From assembly GCA_964507055.1 (NCBI GenBank), contig CAZDOJ010000001.1, positions 337,313 to 401,312 on the forward strand: a stretch of DNA of 64,000 nt, read 5' to 3'. A program made the position numbers and the translations under genes. Positions within the stretch are counted from its first letter, which is position 1; every line of letters begins with the position of its first letter. Source of the DNA: an uncultured Gammaproteobacteria bacterium. GTDB taxonomy: Bacteria > Patescibacteriota > Microgenomatia > Levybacterales > UBA12049. Below are positions 3,977-15,397 of this stretch, one piece after another. The notes below the pieces were generated by a model that was not told the DNA's origin, did no database searches, and was given only the letters and a program-made list of their open reading frames with translations.

Positions 3977-5017
3977 ATGGATAAAGTTGTTACATCAACC
4001 ATAAATCGTATTTCATGGATAGATATATGCCGGGGCATAGCAATCCTATTTGTTATGTATGCACATGCTCTTCCGTCAGATAGTTACCGCTACATTTTTT
4101 ATGCATTTCATATGCCTTTATTCTTTTTCCTTTCTGGCATTGTATTCAAGGAAAGCTTCTCAAGCTATTGGATATTCGTTAAAAAGTCTTTCAAAGCAAT
4201 CTTTATCCCCTATTTTATTTTTGCAATACTGACTTATTTCTTTTGGTTCATCAAAGAACATACTACACATAATACGTTGCATGATTTCCTCGAACAAGTC
4301 TTTGGCATTCTCTACGGTAATGGTAATGCAGGATATTTATATTTTAATGTCGCTTTATGGTTCCTTCCTTGTCTTTTCCTTGCAAGAATTGGATTTGCTG
4401 CAATAACACGAATTTCTACACAAATGCGATTTATTATTCCAGTTTTAATTGGACTTTCTATTATCGGATATGTTTTATCTACGTATTATTCATTTCTCAA
4501 ATTACCTTTTGGCATGGAAACAGCATTTACAGCTATTGTGTTTTTCGGATTGGGATTTCTTTTTAAAAAGAAGGAAAAATTATTTGCAATGATGCAACGA
4601 TATGGAATTGCAGTATTCTTAATTGGACTAGGACTTCTTATTTATTTAGCAGTTCTTAATTATCAACAATATGGAGCACAAATTGATCTACGCGTAAATA
4701 GACTCAATGATTATTTCTTATTCTACTCGGCAGCGATTATCGGGATCATTTCTTGGATCTCTTTTAGCATGGTTTTGAAAAAGAATGTTGTACTTGAATA
4801 TATTGGTCAACGAACGATGATTCTTTTTGTTTGGCATTATTTATTATATTCATATTTTACAGACGCTATGAATTCATGGTTTTCCAAACAAACAATTCAG
4901 GATTATAAAATACTTAAACCGGCTATCTTTACTTTATTGGCATTTGGGATAATTTTAGGATTGAGAGAACTACTAAAGAAAATTTCATTTATGAGGAATC
5001 TTCTCAAGATTCGTTAA
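3977..5017 (+). CDS. acyltransferase family 3 (OafA-like) membrane acyltransferase
   Basis: The N-terminus [15 protein letters not shown]...[11 protein letters not shown] and about 10 TM helices are typical of acyltransferase family 3. Confidence 0.8.
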
Positions 5018-6699
5018 AGCAACTTTGGCTCATTTTTTGGATTGATATTTCCTTCTTCGACTGCCAATTCTTTTCCTGCTTCTTCAACTGGATCAGCGTG
5101 GTGTGTTTTTCTCAATGGAATTTCCTTGAGAAACAAACTGACAAAGAATGTTATAACAGTTAATACTGTGGCGATAAGAAATACTTCAGCAATCGAAGTT
5201 GCGAAAATAACTTTTGCTTTCTCTGCAAATTGATTGAATGCAGTCATTGCTTGTGCTTGCACTGGTCCTGGTAATGATTGTAATTGTGTTTCAATTGCTA
5301 CTCTTCCATCTCCCGTCAAAATGCCTTGTAATTTATTTGCATCAAGTTCTGAAAGATTAAGATTAGGATTCATCGTTGTCATTGTTTGCACAAATTTATC
5401 ATTTGCCAATTCACTTGACTGACGTGACAGACTACTATTCAGTACACCTCCAAGAACTGCTGTCCCGACAGTTGCTCCAATACTTCTGAACAATTGAATT
5501 GATGCTGTAGCAACTCCTAATTTCGAATGATCAAATGCATTTTGTACTGCGAGATTAAAGACAGGCATTGTGACACCAATCCCAAGTCCAGTCAAAATCA
5601 TACGAATAACGAGTTCAGTATTTGTCGTTGTAATAGACATTTGGGACAGAAGGAACATGCCAATTGCGGCGACACCGATACCACTGACTGCAATTATTTT
5701 GTATCGTCCCGTTCGGGAAACGAGTTGTCCTGTCGCAATACTCGCAAAAACGATTCCCAACATCAGTGGTGTAAGAATAGTTCCAGCATCTGTGGCATTG
5801 GTTCCGAGTACAAGTTGTGAGAACAATGGGATATAGAGGATTGTTCCAAACATGCCGATACCCATAAGAAAAATGATAATCATCGAAACAGAAAAGATAG
5901 AATTCTTAAAAAGACTCAGTGGAAGAATTGGCTCTTTGACACGTGCTTCAACAAAAAGGAATGAGTATAAGAAAATAATTGCGTTGGCAAAAAGTGTAAT
6001 TATTTGCCATGAGTCCCAAGCATATTGATTTCCACCCCAAACAAATCCAAGGAGTAAAGAAATTAATCCAATCGAAAGTAAGATGGATCCGACATAGTCG
6101 ATTGATCTATTTGCACGGTCAGATTTAATCTTTGGCATGAGATATGCAACGACAGCGAACGCGAGAATTCCAAGAGGAATATTGATAAAGAAATTCCATC
6201 TCCAAGATGCATTATCAGTCAACCATCCACCGAGGAGAGGTCCGATAACAGATGAGAGTCCAAAAACAGCTCCAAAGAGTCCCTGCCATTTTCCTCGTTC
6301 GGCAGGAGGGAATAAGTCACCAATCACAGTAAATGCATTCGCCATGATTGCTCCTCCTCCGATACCTTGGATTGCACGAAAGGCAATAAGCTGCCACATA
6401 TTCTGTGAAAATCCACTCAGGATTGATCCAATCAAAAAGATGACAATCGCACCGAGAACAAATCCTTTTCGGCCATAAATGTCTGAAAGCTTACCATAAA
6501 TAGGAACAACTACTGTCGATGCCAACATATAAGACGTCACAACCCAACTAAGATGTTCAAGTCCGTTCAGTTCCTTAACGATTTGCGGCAATGCAGTTGC
6601 GACAATGGTTTGGTCTAATGCAGATAAAAGCATCGCCAACATTGTTCCAAGCATTACTGCTATTTTTTGTCCTTTTGTAATATTTGCTAATGTACTCAT
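5014..6699 (-). CDS. MFS transporter, DHA2 (EmrB/QacA) 14-TMS drug:H+ antiporter
   Basis: [13 protein letters not shown]...SWVVTSYML...[10 protein letters not shown]...AIQGIGGG, with 14 predicted TM helices. It lies directly downstream of a MarR gene. Confidence 0.85.
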
Positions 6700-6701
6700 A
6701 G

Positions 6702-7127
6702 TTACTTATTTAAATTCTTTACTATTTTTTCCTGAATACTAATTAATTGATTTACTTCTTCTTTAGTCAAGCTAGAAAGTAGTTCTTTCATTCGTTCTCT
6801 TTTTGCTTCTTTCATATGTTTAAGTTTGTCTAATCCTTCTTTTGTTACAGAGAGTAAAATAACTCTTCGATCATTATCATCCCCTTTTCTTTCAATAAAT
6901 CCAGCTTTAAACATGCGATCAATTAATTGCGTTGTTGAAGATAAAGATGCTGTGAGGTGTTTGGCAACATCACTTAATTTTGCATTTGGATTCTCTTCCA
7001 AAAATGACAATGTATGATATTGCAGAATTGTTGCAGTTCTTTCTTCAAAAGTTTGGTTGCTTGAAGTTCCTACATATTTTGTAATATGAATTGTCTGAGA
7101 AATAATTTTATCAATATCAGTTTGCAT
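6702..7127 (-). CDS. MarR-family transcriptional regulator
   Basis: A winged HTH ([39 protein letters not shown]) and a position directly ahead of the MFS gene. Confidence 0.85.
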
Positions 7128-7169: not shown

Positions 7170-7228
7170 TGTCAAGGTCTTGTTTATATTTACTTTTAGA
7201 ATACGTTGGTATAATATGAGTGTTCCCT

Positions 7229-7879
7229 ATGAAGAATATCACCTACGTGCGATCACGTAAAAGAAGCTCTATTGGTATACAAATTATGCCTGATGCTTCA
7301 GTTACTGTAACTATTCCCTATCTTTTGCCAAAGTTTTTTGCTGAGCGATTTTTAAGAGAAAAACAAGATTGGATTCGGGAGAAACAACAGTTAATGCTTG
7401 CTCGATTACCACAAAAAGAAAAAGGAACATATTTCTATTTGGGTAAAGAATATAGTTTGGGTATTCCTGCAAATCCTAAAGAACTTGTCGAAGTAAAAGA
7501 TAAAATATACGTTGCGAGTACCAATCCAAGTTTAATCAAAAAATATCTAGAAAGTTGGTACAAACAACAAGCACGGAAGATTATTGTTTCTCGAGTTGAA
7601 CATTACGCAAAAATTGCTGGACTTTCTTATCGATCCATTGCCTTAACAAGTGCAGAAACTCGTTGGGGTTCATGCAGTAGTCAAAAGACATTGAACTTTA
7701 ATTGGAAATTAGTTATGGCACCACTTGCTGTTATTGATTATGTCGTCGCTCATGAACTGGCTCATTTAACAGAGATGAATCATTCGCGATCTTTTTGGGA
7801 AACTGTTCGCAAGATGTATCCTTTATATAGAGAGTACAGAACGTGGCTCAAAAGAAATGGTCACAATTTGTCGGTTTAG
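7229..7879 (+). CDS. YgjP-like (DUF45 / M48-type) metal-dependent hydrolase
   Basis: HEXXH (VAHELAHLTEMNHS) near the C-terminus and TRWGSC upstream. The ORF-track start at 7220 is a GTG; the first ATG is at 7229. Confidence 0.7.
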   Translation: MKNITYVRSRKRSSIGIQIMPDASVTVTIPYLLPKFFAERFLREKQDWIREKQQLMLARLPQKEKGTYFYLGKEYSLGIPANPKELVEVKDKIYVASTNPSLIKKYLESWYKQQARKIIVSRVEHYAKIAGLSYRSIALTSAETRWGSCSSQKTLNFNWKLVMAPLAVIDYVVAHELAHLTEMNHSRSFWETVRKMYPLYREYRTWLKRNGHNLSV

Positions 7880-9393
7880 AATCCTGGGAAGTAATCTGTA
7901 ACGATTTGGTTTTGTCCTACTCCAAGTTTTCCCAACAATCTTTTATACGCTTCAACCATTGCAATTGGGCCGGATAAGTAGAATGTTCTCTCTTTAAAGT
8001 CTGGTACTTCTTCAGTTAACATTTTCTCATCAATTCTGCCAACTTTTCCAGTCCATCCAGCAGGGATATGTTCTTTATCACTGAGTACATAGACAGATTT
8101 CAAACCAATTTCCTGCTGTGCTTGATCAAAGACATCTCTGTAAGCAATTTCATTTTCAGTTTTATTAGCATAGAAAAGAACTATTGATCGCGGTTCTTTT
8201 GTATCAATTAGGTATTTAATCATACTTCTAAAAGGTGTAATGCCGATACCTCCTGCAATAAATACAAGTTTCTTCTGTTTATCCTGAGGCATAATGAAAT
8301 CACCAGTTAACTGCGATGCTACTATAATGTCTTTTTCTGTAAACTCCTTTAGTTTGTTTTTAAAACTACTTGCCTTCTCTTCAATTCTGATTCCAAGACG
8401 TAAATGTTTCTCAGTAGGAGCTGAAGCGATAGTAAAGTATCTTCTGTTTCCTCGAATATCAGCCTTTTTATGCGGAAGTGTCCACTCCAGGTACTGACCA
8501 GGTTTGTAATGAAGTGTTTGATTTGAGCGGAAGATATATTCAAAAGTATTCTCCGCAACCTTATTCTTTTCTTTAAATGTGAGGAACATTTTTGCTTTTG
8601 GACTAACAATATAAGAAAAGATGTTTCCGAGTATCAATGCTAATTCTGGTGTAGAGTAAATCGGGCCAAAACTAAATTGCGAACCAAAAAGAAATCCTAC
8701 GATCGCACCATAGATCATTTGCAATTTCTTTGTTGGTGGAGTTGTTAAAGGTTCAGTAAGCATGACAGTTCCAAAGAAGATAATTGGCCAAGATTGGAAT
8801 GCTTCAATAATTGCCTGCTGAATAGCAATACCGTTTATTGCCTGAAAAATACCGATTGTGACTAGACTGACTCCTAAAAATGTAAAGAATAAATGGAAGC
8901 GGCGTATTTTTCTAACTATAAGAAGTCCTATGATTAAAATAAATGGCAGGAGAATATCACTACCTACCCACCAAAGTGCACTCCCATTTCCCATCAATCC
9001 AAGAATTAATGCAGCCGATGCCGCAGGATTAAAAATATGTTTTTTATTAATAGCGAAAATATATTTCGTCGCCATAGCAATAGCACCTGCGGCTATCAGT
9101 GTCAGTGCATCATTTACTCCAGAAACAGGAAGATAAATGAAGAAAAGAATTAATGACGTTATTCCATATGATTCTTCGTTGGTTGGAGCGTTAACAAGTT
9201 TGGAAAAAACAATATTGCTTACATAACAAGTAGCAAGCAATATGAGCATTGATGAGATGAGCTGTGCCGGAGTATAAAAGAGTACTCCCGCAAAGCTCAA
9301 TACAATCGAGATGATTGCGAGGAGAAGTAATCCATAGAGGACGACTTTATACATTGTGTATTTATTGAGGAATTCGTCAATTATTCGAATCAT
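7876..9393 (-). CDS. fusion of a polytopic RnfD/NqrB-like membrane domain with a ferredoxin-NADP+-reductase-like FAD/NAD(P)-binding module
   Basis: The N-terminal ~270 aa carry 6-8 TM helices and an HIFNPA motif. The C-terminus has RRYFTIAS (the RxYS FAD motif) and GGIGITP (NAD(P) Rossmann), the FNR-like fold. The gene sits 6 bp downstream of apbE. Confidence 0.55.
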   Translation of the reverse strand: MIRIIDEFLNKYTMYKVVLYGLLLLAIISIVLSFAGVLFYTPAQLISSMLILLATCYVSNIVFSKLVNAPTNEESYGITSLILFFIYLPVSGVNDALTLIAAGAIAMATKYIFAINKKHIFNPAASAALILGLMGNGSALWWVGSDILLPFILIIGLLIVRKIRRFHLFFTFLGVSLVTIGIFQAINGIAIQQAIIEAFQSWPIIFFGTVMLTEPLTTPPTKKLQMIYGAIVGFLFGSQFSFGPIYSTPELALILGNIFSYIVSPKAKMFLTFKEKNKVAENTFEYIFRSNQTLHYKPGQYLEWTLPHKKADIRGNRRYFTIASAPTEKHLRLGIRIEEKASSFKNKLKEFTEKDIIVASQLTGDFIMPQDKQKKLVFIAGGIGITPFRSMIKYLIDTKEPRSIVLFYANKTENEIAYRDVFDQAQQEIGLKSVYVLSDKEHIPAGWTGKVGRIDEKMLTEEVPDFKERTFYLSGPIAMVEAYKRLLGKLGVGQNQIVTDYFPGF

Positions 9394-9398
9394 ACTTT

Positions 9399-10328
9399 TT
9401 ACGTGTTATAGAAAATTTCTCCAGGAAAAGTCTCAGATTTTTTCAGCGTAAGATCTTTATATAGCATAGCATAATCAAAAGTGAAGTGTTCGGAAAGTAC
9501 TTCAGGTGAGGTGAAATATAAAGCGGTTGCCAATGCATCGGCGAGAATTGCTTTCTTTGCAATAACCCATACTGAGACAATATGTTCTGGTGATGTATTC
9601 GTTTTTGGATCGACAATATGATGATACTTATCCCATTTTCTTCGGTTACCAGCAGAACCGCAGATACTTCCATTCGTGATATTAACCAATCCGATTACTT
9701 GCTTTGGATTTGCTGGATGTTCAAGTCCAATCCGTAATGGATTTTGTTCAGCAGATTTATACAATATGTCTCCCCCAGCATCAATGCAGTAGGAAGTTAC
9801 TCCTTCCAATTCTAATAAAACTCCAACTTGATCAACAATATGTCCTTTTCCACCTGCTCCAAAATCAAGCATGGCAGGTTGTTTTAATTCTAATTTTGGA
9901 TAATGAAATTCGATAATATCTTCCCATTTTGGAGCTTGTCTTATTGTTTCTTTCGGCTTTAATGAATAAGATGCATCATATCCTAAGTCTTCCATAACAT
10001 TACCGATAAGCGGAGTGAATGCTTTGTCAGTAATTTTATAAAGTTTGTGATAGAGCTTAAATAGTTCTCTTGAGTCATTTGGTAATATATCTTGTCCACC
10101 TTTTGCGGCAAGTTTTACAAGTGTAGAGTCTGGTCTAAATCGGGAATACACTTTGTCATATACTTCTATTCGTTCATGTACTTTGTTGATAAAATCTTGC
10201 TTCGTCAAACGAGAATTGTACGCAAAAATATCAATCGTCCATGATGTCCCAATTGCTTCAAATGAGAATTGTAGTGTTTGCATAAATGAGTACTTACCTT
10301 TTATAAATGTTTTGGTAAGTAATTTCAA
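9399..10328 (-). CDS. apbE: FAD:protein FMN transferase ApbE
   Basis: FEAIGTSW, LDFGAGGKGHIVD and SAGNRRKWDKYHHIVDPKT match ApbE-family signature blocks. There is no signal peptide or lipobox. Confidence 0.8.
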   Translation of the reverse strand: MKLLTKTFIKGKYSFMQTLQFSFEAIGTSWTIDIFAYNSRLTKQDFINKVHERIEVYDKVYSRFRPDSTLVKLAAKGGQDILPNDSRELFKLYHKLYKITDKAFTPLIGNVMEDLGYDASYSLKPKETIRQAPKWEDIIEFHYPKLELKQPAMLDFGAGGKGHIVDQVGVLLELEGVTSYCIDAGGDILYKSAEQNPLRIGLEHPANPKQVIGLVNITNGSICGSAGNRRKWDKYHHIVDPKTNTSPEHIVSVWVIAKKAILADALATALYFTSPEVLSEHFTFDYAMLYKDLTLKKSETFPGEIFYNT

Positions 10329-10690
10329 TATAATTTTTTATCTTCTATATCTTCGAGCTCTTCATCAGAAAGTCCAAAATGATGCCCTAACTCATGCAGT
10401 ATCGTCTCTCGAATCATAGGTTTTATAGTATCCTCAGAATGGGATGCAGCAAGGATTGGTTCTTTGAAGAGTGATATTTTGTCTGGAAGTGCAGAATAGT
10501 TTGCTCTTTCAGTTTTAGGGATGCCATGGTACAGTCCAAGTAAATCATATGGGCTTGTAAAGTTTCCTAATTGTTCTTTGGTTGGCCAATCCTCTATTAC
10601 GATTTCTACGTTATCAATTTGTGATTGCAGTTCTTTGGGGATTTCCGCGATTGCTTCTTTAACAATCTTTTCGAATTCTGCTGTGGTCAT
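10325..10690 (-). CDS. zincin-like metallopeptidase-fold protein (DUF1025 type)
   Basis: ILHELGHHFGLSDEELEDIE is an HEXXH-containing C-terminus typical of this small cytosolic family. There is a 4-bp overlap with the apbE start. Confidence 0.6.
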   Translation of the reverse strand: MTTAEFEKIVKEAIAEIPKELQSQIDNVEIVIEDWPTKEQLGNFTSPYDLLGLYHGIPKTERANYSALPDKISLFKEPILAASHSEDTIKPMIRETILHELGHHFGLSDEELEDIEDKKLY

Positions 10691-10697
10691 AATGATG

Positions 10698-10961
10698 CTA
10701 ATGAGATTTCCAGCGTCTTAATCTCGGAATATAGGTATTTGCTAATTCCTTGGCATGTTTTTCGGGCATACCCAAATCATTTACCATATTTTCAACTGAA
10801 TTTTCTATCATGTCATCCATTGTAATGAACGGATTGGTAAAAGAACCATTAAGAAAACAAAATTTGCAATATTTATGATTTTCTGTATGGTCTTCGTTAG
10901 TTCCGTAAAATCCTTCACCCAGTGGCATACCACAACTTTGACAACGAAATGTTAGATCCAT
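10698..10961 (-). CDS. putative zinc-ribbon domain protein
   Basis: CQSCG...CKFCF gives a four-Cys ribbon in an 87-aa protein at the head of the same operon. Confidence 0.5.
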   Translation of the reverse strand: MDLTFRCQSCGMPLGEGFYGTNEDHTENHKYCKFCFLNGSFTNPFITMDDMIENSVENMVNDLGMPEKHAKELANTYIPRLRRWKSH

Positions 10962-11063: not shown

Positions 11064-11354
11064 TTAGTATTGTGCTTCTTGCATAGCTCGTTGTGCTTCT
11101 TGTTCTGCCATCACAGCTTGCTGTTGGTAATATTCAAGATCACTTTGTGCACGTTGTTCTTCATCTTGGTATGTTTGAGCTTGGGAGCGTGAGGTTTCTG
11201 CTTGTTTTCGGTATTGCTCACCTTGATCATAATAAGACTGTGCTTGTCTATCGTTTTGTTCCGCATCCTGTATATAGGTAGCTTTACTCTGAGCAGCTTG
11301 CTCTCTTCTATACAATGCGTCTTCTATATAAGATCGTAAAGTAGTTAAGTCCAT
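11064..11354 (-). CDS. low-complexity Q/E/R/Y-rich coiled-coil protein
   Basis: 96 aa dominated by Q, E, A, R and Y repeats (QAQSYYDQGEQYRKQAE...) with no TM segment. It resembles a hydrophilin. Confidence 0.4.
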   Translation of the reverse strand: MDLTTLRSYIEDALYRREQAAQSKATYIQDAEQNDRQAQSYYDQGEQYRKQAETSRSQAQTYQDEEQRAQSDLEYYQQQAVMAEQEAQRAMQEAQY

Positions 11355-13460: not shown

Positions 13461-13916
13461 TTAACTTCGTTTCGCCTGTGATGCAATAATTTTTACGAGA
13501 ATTGCCTGTAGTTGTTTCTGTTCAGTTGCTGTTAACACCTTTAATAGTTCTGGTTCATATTCATTAAATGCTTTTGCAATTTCCTCACAAAGTTTCGCAC
13601 CTTTCGTTGTCAGTGTGATCATTTTCTCTCTACGGTCCTTAGGATTCTCTTCACGCTTTATATATTCATGGTGCAATAGTCTGTCTACAATACCTGTAAC
13701 ATTTGAAGCATCGCAACGTAATGTCGCCGAAAGTGAATTCATAGGAATTGAATTATCTGCGTCCAAGAGGCAGAGTGTGTACAACTGCATTACAGTTAAA
13801 CCATGCTGCTCTGCAAGATTCATCAAGTTATGTTTTGCTGCAATTGCCACTCGAAATAGTTGCCAATACAGATTTTCTTTAAAATTTGAGCTCGCCATAG
13901 TATTTATTATACGCAA
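13461..13916 (-). CDS. MarR-family transcriptional regulator
   Basis: GLTVMQLYTLCLL...LRCDASNVTGIVDRLLHHEYIKREENPKDRREK is a MarR winged HTH. The gene is divergent from an MFS gene. Confidence 0.85.
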   Translation of the reverse strand: MRIINTMASSNFKENLYWQLFRVAIAAKHNLMNLAEQHGLTVMQLYTLCLLDADNSIPMNSLSATLRCDASNVTGIVDRLLHHEYIKREENPKDRREKMITLTTKGAKLCEEIAKAFNEYEPELLKVLTATEQKQLQAILVKIIASQAKRS

Positions 13917-13937
13917 ATTCTCTTACATAATCAATAG

Positions 13938-13967
13938 TTGACAATATAAACTATCTAGTTCTATAAT
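13938..13967 (+). promoter_or_regulatory. sigma70-like promoter (TTGACA-18-TATAAT) with an embedded palindrome AACTATCTAGTT; candidate MarR operator for the MFS gene
   Basis: TTGACA at 13938..13943 and TATAAT at 13962..13967. The 5-2-5 palindrome at 13949..13960 lies in the spacer, 24 bp upstream of the MFS ATG. Confidence 0.45.
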
Positions 13968-13990
13968 AGTTGAATACTTAAAGTAATTTT

Positions 13991-15397
13991 ATGAAACAAA
14001 AATCTCCTTGGCTTATATTTTTTATAGTAGCAGTTGCCCAATTTATGGTAGTCCTTGATACTTCTATAACAAATGTCGCATTACCTGCAATTGAAAAATC
14101 ACTTGATTTTTCACCAAGCTCACTGCAATGGGTTGTTACAGCATATGCTTTAACATTTGGCGGATTCTTATTACTTGGTGGAAGAGCTGCAGATCTATTA
14201 GGCCGTCGTCGAATGCTTCTTATTGGTATGATAAGCTTCACATTTTTTTCATTACTCATTGGTATTTCTCATTCCGCAACTATGCTTATCGTACTTCGTG
14301 CTCTTCAGGGGGCTGCTGCCGCATTGATGTCTCCTTCAGCTTTATCTATTGTCCTTACTACATTTAAAGAAGGTAAAGAAAGGAATAAAGCTCTCGGACT
14401 TTGGACAACTGTCGCAACTGGTGGTGCAGCTGTAGGGCTATTGCTTGGTGGTGTATTAACAGAATATTTAGGTTGGCAATGGAACTTCTTTATTAATGTT
14501 CCTGTGGGGATTCTACTTTCAATTGCTATTCTAAAATTTGTACCAAAGCAAGAACGAAACACCACACATAGGCATATGGATTTACCGGGTGCAGCATTAG
14601 TTACAAGCGGTTTAATTCTCTTTGTTTATGCAGTGAGTGAATCACCTGCATGGGGAATTTTCAGTGCTCAAACACTTAGTGCCTTTACATTAGCGATAGG
14701 ATTACTTGCAGCATTTATTTACAATGAATCTAAAAGTAAACATCCCTTGATGCCTTTATCGATCTTCAAAATTCGAAATGTTGTAGGAGCTAATTTAATG
14801 ATGGCACCCGTTGCTGCAAGTTTGTTTGGTATGTTTTATATGACATCTCTCTATGCACAAAGTATTCTGCATTACTCTTCCTTGACTGCTGGATTAAGTT
14901 TTTTGCCATTCCCTCTTATTCTTGGATTTATGTCGACACGCGTTCCAGGATTGGTTTCCAAATATGGATATAAAAGATTTCTTGTGATTGGTCCAATTAT
15001 TATTGCGATAAGTTTGGCATGGTTGAGTAGACTTCCTGTGGGTGGGACTTATGTTATTGATATTCTCCCTACCATTCTTTTGATGCCAGTTGGTGTTGGA
15101 ATGACCTTTATGCCGTTATTTGCTGCTGCCACATCAGGAGTTTCACCAGATAAATCAGGTTTGGCATCGGGACTTATTACTACATCTCAACAGATGGGTG
15201 GAGCTTTAGGCTTAGCAATTCTTTCGGGTGTTGCAGCAGCGGCTACTGGAGCTTCTACATCTCATGGACAGCTTGTGCTTGGTTATGATAGAGCATTCTT
15301 TGTTGCCATATTCTTTGTATTAGCTGCGTCATTTGTAGGATTTACTGTCGTCAAACAAACACAAAAACCTGTATCTCCAGTTGTTGTTACTGAATAA
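13991..15397 (+). CDS. MFS transporter, DHA2 family
   Basis: LDTSITNVALPAI...LQWVVTAYALTFGG...GRAADLLGRRR...ALQGAAAAL, with 14 TM helices. Confidence 0.85.
   Translation: MKQKSPWLIFFIVAVAQFMVVLDTSITNVALPAIEKSLDFSPSSLQWVVTAYALTFGGFLLLGGRAADLLGRRRMLLIGMISFTFFSLLIGISHSATMLIVLRALQGAAAALMSPSALSIVLTTFKEGKERNKALGLWTTVATGGAAVGLLLGGVLTEYLGWQWNFFINVPVGILLSIAILKFVPKQERNTTHRHMDLPGAALVTSGLILFVYAVSESPAWGIFSAQTLSAFTLAIGLLAAFIYNESKSKHPLMPLSIFKIRNVVGANLMMAPVAASLFGMFYMTSLYAQSILHYSSLTAGLSFLPFPLILGFMSTRVPGLVSKYGYKRFLVIGPIIIAISLAWLSRLPVGGTYVIDILPTILLMPVGVGMTFMPLFAAATSGVSPDKSGLASGLITTSQQMGGALGLAILSGVAAAATGASTSHGQLVLGYDRAFFVAIFFVLAASFVGFTVVKQTQKPVSPVVVTE

What the first reader, a model, noticed from the sequence alone, without database searches (positions are those of the whole stretch)
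7876..10961. Operon coupling a cytoplasmic ApbE flavin transferase to an RnfD/NqrB-like membrane domain fused to an FNR-type reductase
Four genes are translationally coupled on the minus strand, with 4-6 bp gaps: a zinc-ribbon protein, a zincin-like protein, ApbE and a 505-aa membrane protein.

ApbE shows three ApbE signature blocks. It has no signal peptide, so it is predicted to be cytoplasmic.

The 505-aa protein has a polytopic N-terminus (HIFNPA motif, reminiscent of RnfD/NqrB). Its C-terminus is a ferredoxin-NADP-reductase-like FAD/NAD(P) module (RRYFTIAS, GGIGITP).

This reads like a stripped-down, single-polypeptide Rnf/Nqr-like module. An NAD(P)H dehydrogenase domain is wired directly to a covalently flavinylated membrane subunit. 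That would be a minimal membrane redox unit, possibly transmembrane electron transfer or a quinone reductase.

I could not find a canonical [S/T]GA[S/T] flavinylation motif, so the acceptor site is unclear.
Basis: partly seen in the sequence, partly recalled or inferred. Interest (0 to 1): 0.65.

Follow-up and report, generated by a model that had tools for sequence, protein, structure and literature searches.

The report
NQR/RNF-like flavin electron-transfer module
Two adjacent genes in a small uncultured (Levybacteria-like, candidate phyla radiation) bacterium encode a flavin-attaching enzyme and a membrane protein that fuses an RnfD/NqrB-type domain to an NAD(P)H reductase; this minimal 'NQR/RNF-like' system was already described by comparative genomics, and its third part, a small exported flavin carrier, is encoded elsewhere in this genome.

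Summary
On the minus strand lie Zn_ribbon_2, Zincin_1, ApbE and a 505-aa protein whose N-terminal 10-helix domain is RnfD/NqrB-like and whose C-terminal part is an FNR-type reductase.

The architecture is not new. Méheust 2021 (eLife) and Huang 2024 (mSystems) call it the "NQR/RNF-like system".

- The membrane domain lacks the roughly 70-residue loop that carries the flavinylated Thr in RnfD, so it is not the ApbE acceptor.
- The acceptor is most likely a roughly 174-aa membrane-anchored, divergent FMN_bind protein with an invariant SGSS in place of SGAT. It precedes ApbE in 33 of 34 related loci. It is missing from this operon but is encoded elsewhere, apparently on the same 1.32-Mb contig (P0138).
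- The Zn-ribbon and zincin genes are only local syntenic neighbours.

The family splits into two co-diverged clades: an SGSS partner with a long ApbE, and a canonical SGAT partner with a short ApbE.

One puzzle remains. In both clades ApbE has no signal peptide, while the partner is exported; some homologues are lipoproteins.

Verdict: a new member of a known, experimentally uncharacterised kind. Interest is moderate.

The parts
7876..9393 (-). Gene for the 505-aa RnfD/NqrB-like-FNR fusion protein (stop codon 7876-7878)
   Evidence: ORF. Pfam PF03116 and PF00175. AF2 model with pLDDT 87.4 and pTM 0.82. More than 7,900 homologues, the best ones from CPR bacteria.
8599..9393 (-). N-terminal membrane domain (aa 1-265, about 10 helices), RnfD/NqrB fold
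   Evidence: The 13 best Foldseek PDB hits of the domain model are all RnfD or NqrB chains (TMq 0.50-0.68, probability 1.00), followed by urea transporters. The MAFFT alignment with E. coli RsxD is collinear. The family profile hits RnfD 8ahx_D at E 0.015.
9019..9039 (-). HIFNPAA motif (aa 119-125), invariant H119, F121, N122, P123
   Evidence: Aligns with NPFNPAM of RsxD. Invariant in 36 homologues. Coordinates checked.
8950..8994 (-). Short outer loop MGNGSALWWVGSDIL (aa 134-148), at the place where RnfD has a roughly 70-residue loop carrying the flavinylated Thr
   Evidence: In the MAFFT alignment the RsxD segment containing SQAT(187)PLD faces gaps only. Huang 2024 reports the same absence.
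8734..8757 (-). TEPLTTPP motif (aa 213-220), shared with RnfD (TDPVTAST)
   Evidence: It lies at the core of the Pfam PF03116 match.
7879..8592 (-). C-terminal FNR-type FAD/NAD(P)H reductase domain (aa 268-505), with RRYFTIAS at 8422-8445 and GGIGITP at 8233-8253
   Evidence: PF00175, E 9e-20. PDB sequence hits to NqrF, cytochrome b5 reductase and flavohaemoglobin reductase domains. Foldseek TMt up to 0.85 on FAD/NAD modules. All NCBIfam hits are far below their family cut-offs, so it is not an orthologue of any named reductase.
9399..10283 (-). Leaderless ApbE-family FAD:protein FMN transferase gene (294 aa)
   Evidence: PF02424, E 2.4e-45. Aligns with E. coli, T. maritima and T. pallidum ApbE structures from the first beta-strand onward, keeping GAGGKG, DAGGD, HHIVDP and ADALAT. 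Start and absence of a signal peptide.
10284..10324 (-). 41-nt spacer between the zincin stop and the ApbE start; syntenic relatives carry the roughly 174-aa FMN_bind-like partner gene here
   Evidence: L006 and L012 have Zn_ribbon_2, Zincin_1, partner, ApbE, RnfD/FNR in that order; L007 has the partner directly upstream of ApbE. tblastn with three partner proteins finds nothing in the window. Two other assemblies show the same partner-less order.

Best explanation
The window holds two of the three parts of an 'NQR/RNF-like' flavin-based transmembrane electron-transfer system, in a CPR (Levybacteria-like) genome.

Proposed electron path:
1. The FNR domain of the 505-aa protein oxidises NAD(P)H in the cytoplasm and reduces its FAD. 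The domain identity is shown; the activity is inferred.
2. Electrons pass into the fused RnfD/NqrB-type membrane domain, which presumably holds non-covalent flavin where RnfD/NqrB hold riboflavin and FMN (inferred from homology and from Huang 2024).
3. They then reach an FMN covalently bound to the second Ser of an invariant SGSS motif (Ser155) in a small, N-terminally anchored FMN_bind-like protein on the outer face of the membrane. This protein is P0138. Its gene is not in this operon but at another locus, apparently on the same contig.
4. From there electrons go to an unknown extracytosolic acceptor.

The adjacent ApbE is the enzyme that attaches that FMN. It does not modify the RnfD-like domain, which has lost the acceptor loop.

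The Zn-ribbon and zincin genes upstream are unrelated neighbours. They came to abut ApbE when the partner gene was lost from, or moved away from, this site.
For: Architecture and fold:
- PF03116 above the gathering cut-off, plus PF00175, in one protein.
- RnfD and NqrB chains are the 13 best structural matches of the membrane domain.
- The alignment with E. coli RsxD is collinear.
- The same architecture was defined as 'NQR/RNF-like' in PMC8238504 and modelled in PMC11334425.

The membrane domain is not the acceptor:
- The loop with the acceptor Thr is absent.
- No flavinylation motif occurs in any real gene of the window.

A three-gene module:
- Among 85 loci, the only gene families that recur beside the fusion gene are ApbE (72 loci) and the two partner types (33 and 42 loci).
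- 33 of 34 clade-1 loci carry a clade-1 partner gene within the locus, directly upstream of ApbE in most. The window is the single exception.

The partner is FMN_bind-like:
- hhalign gives 90% probability (E 1.6e-6) against a Pfam-confirmed FMN_bind partner.
- In that alignment SGSS lies exactly on SGAT.
- S154, S155 and L156 are invariant in 40 sequences.

The partner is in this genome:
- P0138 and the window protein P0001 both list a longest contig of 1,318,932 bp and occur in the same SRR142713xx run series.

ApbE looks catalytically competent:
- The full domain and the conserved His and Asp/Thr motifs are present.

Flavin positions in RnfD/NqrB:
- FMN lies near the outer face and riboflavin near the cytoplasmic face, about 8 Å apart (PMC12174285).
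Against: - Nothing here has been tested experimentally, and the held literature contains no biochemical study of any NQR/RNF-like system.
- ApbE has no signal peptide, whereas the proposed acceptor is exported. Partners have an N-in signal anchor, and some homologues have lipoprotein signals. The enzyme and its substrate are therefore predicted to sit on opposite sides of the membrane unless modification precedes export.
- SGSS departs from the canonical D-x-x-[S/T]-G-A-[S/T] motif. Ser acceptors and substitutions at the Ala position lower efficiency with known ApbEs (PMC12052999).
- The partner itself has no Pfam FMN_bind hit.
- The terminal acceptor, the nature of the membrane-domain flavins and any ion coupling are unknown.
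Confidence: 0.7

Rival explanations
1. A single-polypeptide unit in which the cytoplasmic ApbE flavinylates the RnfD-like-FNR protein itself at a non-canonical Ser or Thr, so that NAD(P)H dehydrogenase is wired directly to a covalently flavinylated membrane domain.
For: ApbE and the fusion gene are 5 nt apart and almost always adjacent. ApbE is cytoplasmic, as are the FNR domain and the N-terminus of the fusion protein. No partner gene is in this operon. Invariant Ser/Thr residues exist, for example T13, T213, T217, T321 and S324.
Against: The acceptor loop of RnfD/NqrB is deleted. The invariant Ser/Thr residues sit in motifs shared with non-flavinylated relatives: TxP of RnfD, and RxY[ST]xxS of all FNRs. 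No D-x-x-[ST]-G-[AS]-[ST] motif is present. A partner with a conserved acceptor-type motif accompanies the pair in 33 of 34 clade-1 loci and exists in this genome. Huang 2024 reached the same conclusion.
Confidence: 0.07
2. The leaderless ApbE does not flavinylate the partner. It works from the cytoplasmic side as an FAD pyrophosphatase or flavin-delivery factor that supplies FMN or riboflavin to the non-covalent sites of the membrane domain. The exported partner is then modified by another enzyme, or binds flavin non-covalently.
For: This would resolve the sidedness problem: ApbE is cytoplasmic and the partner is exported. Some ApbE/Ftp family members have FAD pyrophosphatase activity (T. pallidum Ftp, PMC4436053, listed). 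The clade-1 motif SGSS is non-canonical.
Against: Clade-2 systems have an equally leaderless ApbE together with a perfectly canonical V[DN]xxSGA[TS] acceptor. Across the loci sampled, each ApbE type occurs only with its own partner motif type, although this amounts to one evolutionary split only. The transferase-type catalytic His and the Mg-binding motifs are kept. No second ApbE recurs near these loci.
Confidence: 0.15
3. A decaying remnant. Loss of the partner gene from the operon has left an ApbE and fusion-gene pair that no longer forms a working system.
For: The window is the only one of 34 clade-1 loci without a partner gene in the locus.
Against: Both ORFs are intact and keep every invariant family residue. 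The same gene order is seen in independent assemblies. An intact partner, 79% identical to that of a syntenic relative over the aligned 64% of the query (the conserved domain), is encoded elsewhere, apparently on the same contig.
Confidence: 0.03
4. The same three components, but working as an ion-coupled or reversible device: Na+/H+ translocation through the NqrB-like domain, or an ion gradient driving electron flow, rather than as a simple one-way electron exporter.
For: RnfD/NqrB is related to ammonium/urea transporters and is proposed to carry the Na+ path in NQR (PMC12174285). The fold is retained and urea transporters are the next-best structural hits.
Against: RnfA/E (NqrD/E) and the 2Fe-2S switch that gates ion coupling in RNF/NQR do not recur near these loci.
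Confidence: 0.1

Closest known systems
NQR/RNF-like flavinylation-associated system (Méheust et al. 2021, eLife, PMC8238504; Huang et al. 2024, mSystems, PMC11334425)
   Same: A single protein with an N-terminal NqrB/RnfD-like membrane domain (PF03116) and a C-terminal PF00175 NAD-binding domain, encoded next to apbE. The membrane domain lacks the flavinylated Thr. The system has a small membrane-anchored NqrC/RnfG-like partner. It was reported mainly from Actinobacteria and CPR.
   Different: This locus belongs to a sister clade. Its partner carries SGSS instead of SGAT and is not recognised by Pfam FMN_bind, and its ApbE is a longer, distinct type. Such clusters would fail the 2021 survey's filter, which needs PF04205 or ApbE with a predicted signal peptide. 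Here the partner gene is also unlinked from the operon. Neither paper's text comments on the leaderless ApbE.
RnfD / NqrB subunits of RNF and Na+-NQR
   Same: Same 10-helix fold (Foldseek TMq up to 0.68). Shared NPFNPA and TDPxT-type motifs and a collinear alignment. The two-flavin path across the membrane is probably shared as well.
   Different: No covalent-FMN loop. No RnfA/E/G/C/B or NqrA/C-F partners. Fused to its own NAD(P)H reductase. Electron flow is presumed to be one-way, from inside to outside, rather than a return path.
MsrQ-like and PepSY-like proteins fused to PF00175, and NOX/FRE-type reductases (e.g. S. pneumoniae NOX)
   Same: The same logic: a transmembrane redox domain fused to a cytoplasmic FNR-type NAD(P)H module that sends electrons outward. 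The SpNOX dehydrogenase domain is among the structural hits. Some of these systems are associated with flavinylation.
   Different: Those membrane domains carry haems on a different fold. Here the membrane domain is the flavin-binding RnfD/NqrB fold.
Cytoplasmic ApbE of Klebsiella pneumoniae (flavinylates a soluble fumarate reductase) and the ApbE domains of trypanosomatid fumarate reductases
   Same: ApbE-family enzymes without a secretion signal that act inside the cell (PMC12052999).
   Different: Their acceptor is cytoplasmic too. Here the only plausible acceptor is an exported, membrane-anchored or lipidated protein.

Membership tests
NQR/RNF-like system (operational definition of Méheust 2021) | One protein with an N-terminal PF03116 (NqrB/RnfD) membrane domain and a C-terminal PF00175 domain | tested here: met
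   PF03116 at 30.6 bits against a cut-off of 27.7; PF00175 at E 9e-20.
NQR/RNF-like system (operational definition of Méheust 2021) | Encoded within five genes of an ApbE or FMN_bind gene | tested here: met
   The ApbE gene ends 5 nt upstream of the fusion gene.
NQR/RNF-like system (operational definition of Méheust 2021) | [quoted passage not shown] | tested here: not met
   ApbE is leaderless and no partner gene is in the cluster. The unlinked partner P0138 does have an N-terminal anchor. No dedicated signal-peptide predictor was available; the judgement rests on ORF limits and hydropathy.
NQR/RNF-like system (Huang 2024 description) | A second subunit: a membrane-anchored NqrC/RnfG-like FMN_bind protein with a flavinylation site | tested here: inconclusive
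   Absent from the window. A homologue (P0138) is present elsewhere, apparently on the same contig. It is related to FMN_bind by hhalign (90%), but it has no Pfam hit and carries SGSS rather than SGAT.
NQR/RNF-like system (Huang 2024 description) | The transmembrane domain lacks the flavinylated Thr conserved in NqrB/RnfD | tested here: met
   The RsxD loop with T187 faces gaps in the alignment, and the protein has no flavinylation motif.
RnfD/NqrB subunit of RNF or Na+-NQR complexes | RnfD/NqrB fold and sequence family | tested here: met
RnfD/NqrB subunit of RNF or Na+-NQR complexes | Covalent FMN on a Thr in the outer loop ([S/T]-x-A-T) | tested here: not met
   The loop is deleted.
RnfD/NqrB subunit of RNF or Na+-NQR complexes | Encoded with the RnfA/E/G/C/B or NqrA/C/D/E/F subunits | tested here: not met
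   The neighbours are Zincin_1, Zn_ribbon_2, YgjP-like, MarR and MFS genes. No such family recurs in 85 loci. The rest of the genome was not searched.
ApbE FAD:protein FMN transferase (PF02424) | Full ApbE domain with the catalytic His and the Mg-binding Asp/Thr motifs | tested here: met
   E 2.4e-45 over profile positions 2-249 of 266. HHIVDP and ADALAT align with the corresponding motifs of solved ApbEs.
ApbE FAD:protein FMN transferase (PF02424) | N-terminal lipoprotein or secretion signal (typical, but not universal) | tested here: not met
   The ORF begins at the first beta-strand. The same holds in all 72 related loci that have an ApbE.
ApbE FAD:protein FMN transferase (PF02424) | Transfers FMN from FAD to a Ser or Thr of an acceptor protein | not testable with these tools
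   Needs biochemistry.
FNR-type (ferredoxin-NADP reductase-like) FAD/NAD(P)H module | Two-subdomain fold with an R-x-[YF]-[ST] FAD motif and a GGxGxxP nucleotide motif | tested here: met
   RRYFTIAS and GGIGITP are invariant. Foldseek TMt is 0.8-0.85 on FAD/NAD modules. PF00175 is hit. PF00970 itself did not reach E 0.01 for this sequence.

The most novel reading that the evidence does not exclude
In this whole family (CPR, Chloroflexota and actinobacterium-like lineages) a cytosolic, leaderless ApbE flavinylates the acceptor motif of a Sec-exported or lipidated FMN_bind protein before export. The cell would then send out a ready-made covalent flavoprotein and would not need to secrete FAD or ApbE.

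In addition, the SGSS-partner clade to which this locus belongs is a subtype that is invisible to Pfam- and signal-peptide-based surveys. If so, flavin-based extracytosolic electron transfer would be far commoner in CPR bacteria than reported: at least 592 stretches among the GTDB species-representative genomes and about 1,300 clusters at 50% identity.
Probability: 0.3. Interest if true: 0.7.

Novelty: new member of a known kind. Interest (0 to 1): 0.38.

Why it matters
CPR/Patescibacteria are usually described as fermenters without electron-transport chains. The 2021 survey found extracytosolic flavinylation "strikingly underrepresented" in them.

This family may be their main membrane redox device:
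- The membrane domain alone matches about 1,300 clusters at 50% identity.
- Most of the 80 loci retrieved are titled as CPR or Chloroflexota genomes.

Such a device could let these bacteria reoxidise NAD(P)H on outside acceptors, or reduce iron. In this genome a VIT1 gene lies two genes from the partner.

The system is a minimal, roughly three-gene model for how the RnfD/NqrB fold moves electrons across a membrane.

The mismatch between a cytoplasmic ApbE and an exported acceptor, if real, points to an undescribed maturation route.

For the finding as submitted, however, both the architecture and its interpretation are already in the literature.

Tried and rejected
- **Motif scan.** A six-frame scan of the window for D-x-x-[ST]-G-[AS]-[ST] gave one hit, in a non-coding frame.
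- **Partner search in the window.** tblastn of three partner proteins against the window found nothing.
- **Partner against solved structures.** A profile of the partner family against PDB sequences gave no meaningful hit, so its link to FMN_bind rests on hhalign.
- **hhalign against E. coli RsxD.** The membrane-domain profile aligned locally only, over the C-terminal half, at 46.6% probability. The profile search of the PDB gave E 0.015 against RnfD. The N-terminal half was placed by MAFFT and by fold.
- **Fold search with the full-length model.** It was swamped by FNR domains, so the membrane domain was remodelled alone.
- **A misleading heuristic.** My first hydropathy measure suggested that clade-2 ApbEs carry signal peptides. 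Reading the sequences showed that the "hydrophobic stretch" is the first beta-strand (ILMGMPITVEI) and that the upstream in-frame sequence is non-coding or overlaps the partner gene. That idea was dropped.
- **Supplementary table.** The sheet of Méheust 2021 with the NQR/RNF-like clusters was truncated in the held copy.
- **Failed look-up.** The genomic context of P0004 was not on record.
- **FTIASS as an acceptor site.** I considered whether FTIASS in the FNR domain, which superficially resembles RnfD's SQAT-P, could be an acceptor. I rejected it because it is the universal FNR FAD-binding motif.
- **Zn-ribbon and zincin as components.** I considered this and rejected it, because they neighbour the system only in the three closest relatives.

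Full report
**1. What is in the sequence**

Four ORFs lie head to tail on the minus strand:
- 10698-10961: 87 aa, Zn_ribbon_2, E 3.6e-25.
- 10325-10690: 121 aa, Zincin_1, E 2.3e-28.
- An ApbE-family gene: PF02424, E 2.4e-45.
- 7876-9393: 505 aa.

The 505-aa protein matches PF03116 (NQR2_RnfD_RnfE) at 30.6 bits. This is above the 27.7-bit gathering score but covers residues 151-262 only. It also matches PF00175 (NAD_binding_1) at E 9e-20.

Its C-terminal 230 residues resemble many FNR-type reductases (NqrF, cytochrome b5 reductase, flavohaemoglobin). All NCBIfam scores are far below each family's cut-off, so it is not an orthologue of any named enzyme.

The spacings need correcting. They are 7 nt (Zn-ribbon to zincin), 41 nt (zincin to ApbE) and 5 nt (ApbE to the fusion gene). 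The true ApbE start is the ATG at 10283 (MQTLQFSFEAIGT...). Gene calls on two independent assemblies of the same organism and every homologue agree on this. Even the longest possible ORF adds only 15 non-hydrophobic residues, so a signal peptide is impossible.

A promoter-like site precedes the Zn-ribbon gene and no terminator-like site splits the four genes. Such matches are no commoner here than in shuffled sequence.

**2. The membrane domain is RnfD/NqrB-like but has lost the flavinylation loop**

An AlphaFold2 model of the whole protein is confident (pLDDT 87.4, pTM 0.82). A model of residues 1-268 alone has pLDDT 83.6.

The 13 best Foldseek matches of that domain in the PDB are all RnfD chains (A. 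woodii, A. vinelandii, C. tetanomorphum) or V. cholerae NqrB chains, with TMq 0.50-0.68 and probability 1.00. Urea transporters follow, as expected for this fold.

A profile of the domain hits A. vinelandii RnfD by sequence at E 0.015.

Adding E. coli RsxD to the family alignment gives a collinear match:
- TNEES aligns with LKDNS.
- KHIFNPAA aligns with QNPFNPAM.
- VRKIRRFH aligns with WQKAIRWH.
- MLTEPLTTPPT aligns with ILTDPVTASTT.

The roughly 70 residues of RsxD between the NPA helix and the next helix include the flavinylated Thr187 (GISQATPLD). In the window protein this stretch faces only gaps; the corresponding loop is just MGNGSALWWVGSDIL.

In RnfD/NqrB the covalent FMN lies near the outer face and riboflavin near the cytoplasmic face, about 8 Å apart (PMC12174285).

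**3. The architecture is already described**

Méheust et al. 2021 defined an "NQR/RNF-like system" as a PF03116 plus PF00175 fusion in a flavinylation-associated gene cluster. They found 127 clusters, mainly in Actinobacteria and the candidate phyla radiation. [quoted passage not shown]

Huang et al. 2024 modelled the Ktedonobacter complex (PMC11334425). They stated three things:
- The system has two subunits: the fusion protein and a membrane-anchored NqrC/RnfG-like protein.
- The transmembrane domain lacks the flavinylation site conserved in NqrB/RnfD.
- The partner's flavinylation site docks near the vacant flavin site.

No other paper in the held library treats this system.

**4. The missing third component**

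Relatives of the window protein are numerous, and the best hits are CPR bacteria:
- More than 7,900 hits to the whole protein.
- About 1,300 clusters at 50% identity for the membrane domain alone, nearly all about 500 aa long.

The closest named relative, at 74% identity, is a Levyibacteriota MAG.

In relatives, a gene for a 160-185-aa protein lies immediately upstream of ApbE. This includes the syntenic ones. L006 and L012 read deformylase, Zn_ribbon_2, Zincin_1, small gene, ApbE, fusion gene, then YgjP-like on the opposite strand. L007 reads Zn_ribbon_2, HisKA, HxlR, small gene, ApbE, fusion gene.

The small protein has three parts:
- An N-terminal membrane anchor.
- A Q/T/S/P-rich linker.
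- A roughly 100-residue domain, YKDGTYT...SPGG...VTLTL...VVGK...KVSGSSLTPKGFNDA, with S154, S155 and L156 invariant.

The small protein has no Pfam hit of its own. hhalign nevertheless matches it to a Pfam-confirmed FMN_bind partner from another locus at 90% probability (E 1.6e-6), with SGSS lying exactly on SGAT. It is therefore a divergent FMN_bind domain whose presumed acceptor is Ser155.

The window has no such gene; 41 nt occupy its place. However, a 174-aa member of the family (P0138) lists a longest contig of 1,318,932 bp. That is the same length as for the window's own protein P0001, and both occur in the same run series. P0138 is 79% identical to L006's partner over the aligned 64% of the query, which covers the conserved domain.

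P0138 lies at another locus (L008-L011). The order there is HxlR (opposite strand), Zn-dependent alcohol dehydrogenase, partner, beta-CASP nuclease (opposite strand), VIT1 (opposite strand), with a Cu/Zn superoxide dismutase nearby.

In L007 an HxlR gene lies divergently next to the intact three-gene module. This suggests that a rearrangement split the module in the window's lineage.

The Zn-ribbon and zincin genes accompany the system only in these closest relatives. An all-against-all clustering of neighbours in 85 loci finds no recurrent family other than the fusion gene, ApbE and the partner.

**5. Two co-diverged subtypes**

A neighbour-joining tree of the fusion proteins from 86 sources (85 loci plus the window) splits them into two clades.
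- **Clade 1** includes the window. It goes with a roughly 290-aa ApbE (345-540 bits on a clade-1 HMM, apart from two outliers at about 300) and the SGSS partner. 33 of its 34 ApbE-bearing loci carry the partner; the window is the exception. A few further clade-1 loci, on short contigs, show neither gene.
- **Clade 2** goes with a roughly 250-aa ApbE, confirmed by Pfam (E about 1e-42). Its partner is a canonical FMN_bind protein carrying V[DN]xxSGA[TS].

Clade-1 clusters have a leaderless ApbE and a partner that escapes PF04205. They would not pass the 2021 survey's entry filter. That clade is probably under-reported.

**6. An unexplained point**

Reading the stop-to-stop ORFs shows that both ApbE types begin directly at the first beta-strand of the domain (FEAIGT... 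or MK.TR..MGMP...). No in-frame upstream sequence could encode a leader. My earlier hydropathy heuristic was misleading and was discarded.

The partners, by contrast, are built for export:
- Clade-2 partners start with MKK followed by a hydrophobic helix.
- In 118 clade-1 partners the N-terminal flank carries more Lys/Arg than the C-terminal flank (1.72 against 1.04; N>C in 68, N<C in 14).
- Some homologues have lipoprotein signals: P0193 ...VAG|C, P0232 ...LSG|C, P0191 ...VG|C.
- The loci of P0193 and P0232 still have a leaderless ApbE followed by the fusion gene. The P0232 locus is a 65%-GC contig.

The enzyme and its most plausible substrate are therefore predicted to lie on opposite sides of the membrane. 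Cytoplasmic ApbEs are known, but only with cytoplasmic acceptors (PMC12052999). ApbE can modify seven-residue tags at protein termini, so flavinylation of the unfolded precursor before Sec export is conceivable. It is untested.

**7. Most likely mechanism**

| Status | Point |
|---|---|
| Shown | The domain identities; the absence of the acceptor loop; the three-gene module in relatives |
| Inferred | NAD(P)H to FAD (FNR domain), to non-covalent flavin(s) in the RnfD-like domain, to FMN on Ser155 of the partner at the outer face, to an unknown acceptor; ApbE installs the partner's FMN |
| Not addressed | The terminal acceptor (iron reduction is hinted at only by the nearby VIT1 gene); any ion coupling; how the sidedness problem is solved |

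**8. Verdict**

This is a new member of a known but experimentally untouched kind. It has subtype features (SGSS partner, split module) and a family-wide topological puzzle that are worth a specialist's attention.

Noticed in passing
L008:10001-10525 (also L009-L011); neighbours L008:8539-13770: The unlinked partner gene (P0138) sits beside genes with a redox or metal theme: a divergent HxlR-type regulator, a Zn-dependent alcohol dehydrogenase/quinone-reductase-like gene 68 nt upstream, Cu/Zn superoxide dismutase, and a VIT1 iron transporter two genes downstream. In L007 an HxlR gene lies divergently next to the intact three-gene module. This hints at HxlR control and a stress- or iron-related role.
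   Followed up: partly
Loci L031-L091 (clade 2) versus L003-L030 (clade 1): The fusion gene, ApbE and the partner have diverged together into two subtypes: an SGSS partner with a roughly 290-aa ApbE, and a canonical SGA[TS] partner with a roughly 250-aa ApbE that lacks a central segment. The SGSS partner is not detected by Pfam FMN_bind.
   Followed up: yes
L039, L047, L077, L090: Some clade-2 loci, from Levyibacteriota, Chloroflexia and a MAG titled Acidiferrales, carry two FMN_bind partner genes next to the fusion gene. In L077 the second partner appears frame-shifted relative to its own N-terminus, possibly a long-read assembly error.
   Followed up: no
window 7220-7879 (+): A YgjP-like (PF01863) metallopeptidase gene converges on the fusion gene and overlaps its 3' end by 4 nt. 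This neighbour is conserved in L006, L007 and L012, but on the opposite strand, so it is unlikely to be part of the system.
   Followed up: partly
window 5014-7127 (-) and 13461-15397: Two separate MarR-family regulator and MFS transporter pairs flank the region. One is MarR 6702-7127 with MFS 5014-6699. The other is an ORF at 13461-13916 that looks MarR-like from its sequence only (not run against Pfam), with a probable MFS transporter at 13991-15397.
   Followed up: no
window 11064-11354 (-): A 96-aa Gln/Glu-rich, probably coiled-coil ORF with no Pfam match lies between the deformylase and Zn-ribbon genes. It is absent at this position in L006 and L007.
   Followed up: no
window 8294-9136 (+) and equivalent positions in 50 loci: ORFs of about 120 aa on the strand opposite the fusion gene recur in up to 50 loci in the neighbour clustering. 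They overlap the conserved gene and are shadow ORFs, not genes.
   Followed up: yes
Record titles of L014, L019, L022-L026 and others: Many loci with typical CPR gene content come from MAGs titled 'uncultured Gammaproteobacteria' or 'Pseudomonadales'. These titles look like placeholder or wrong taxonomy and should not be used to infer the family's distribution.
   Followed up: no
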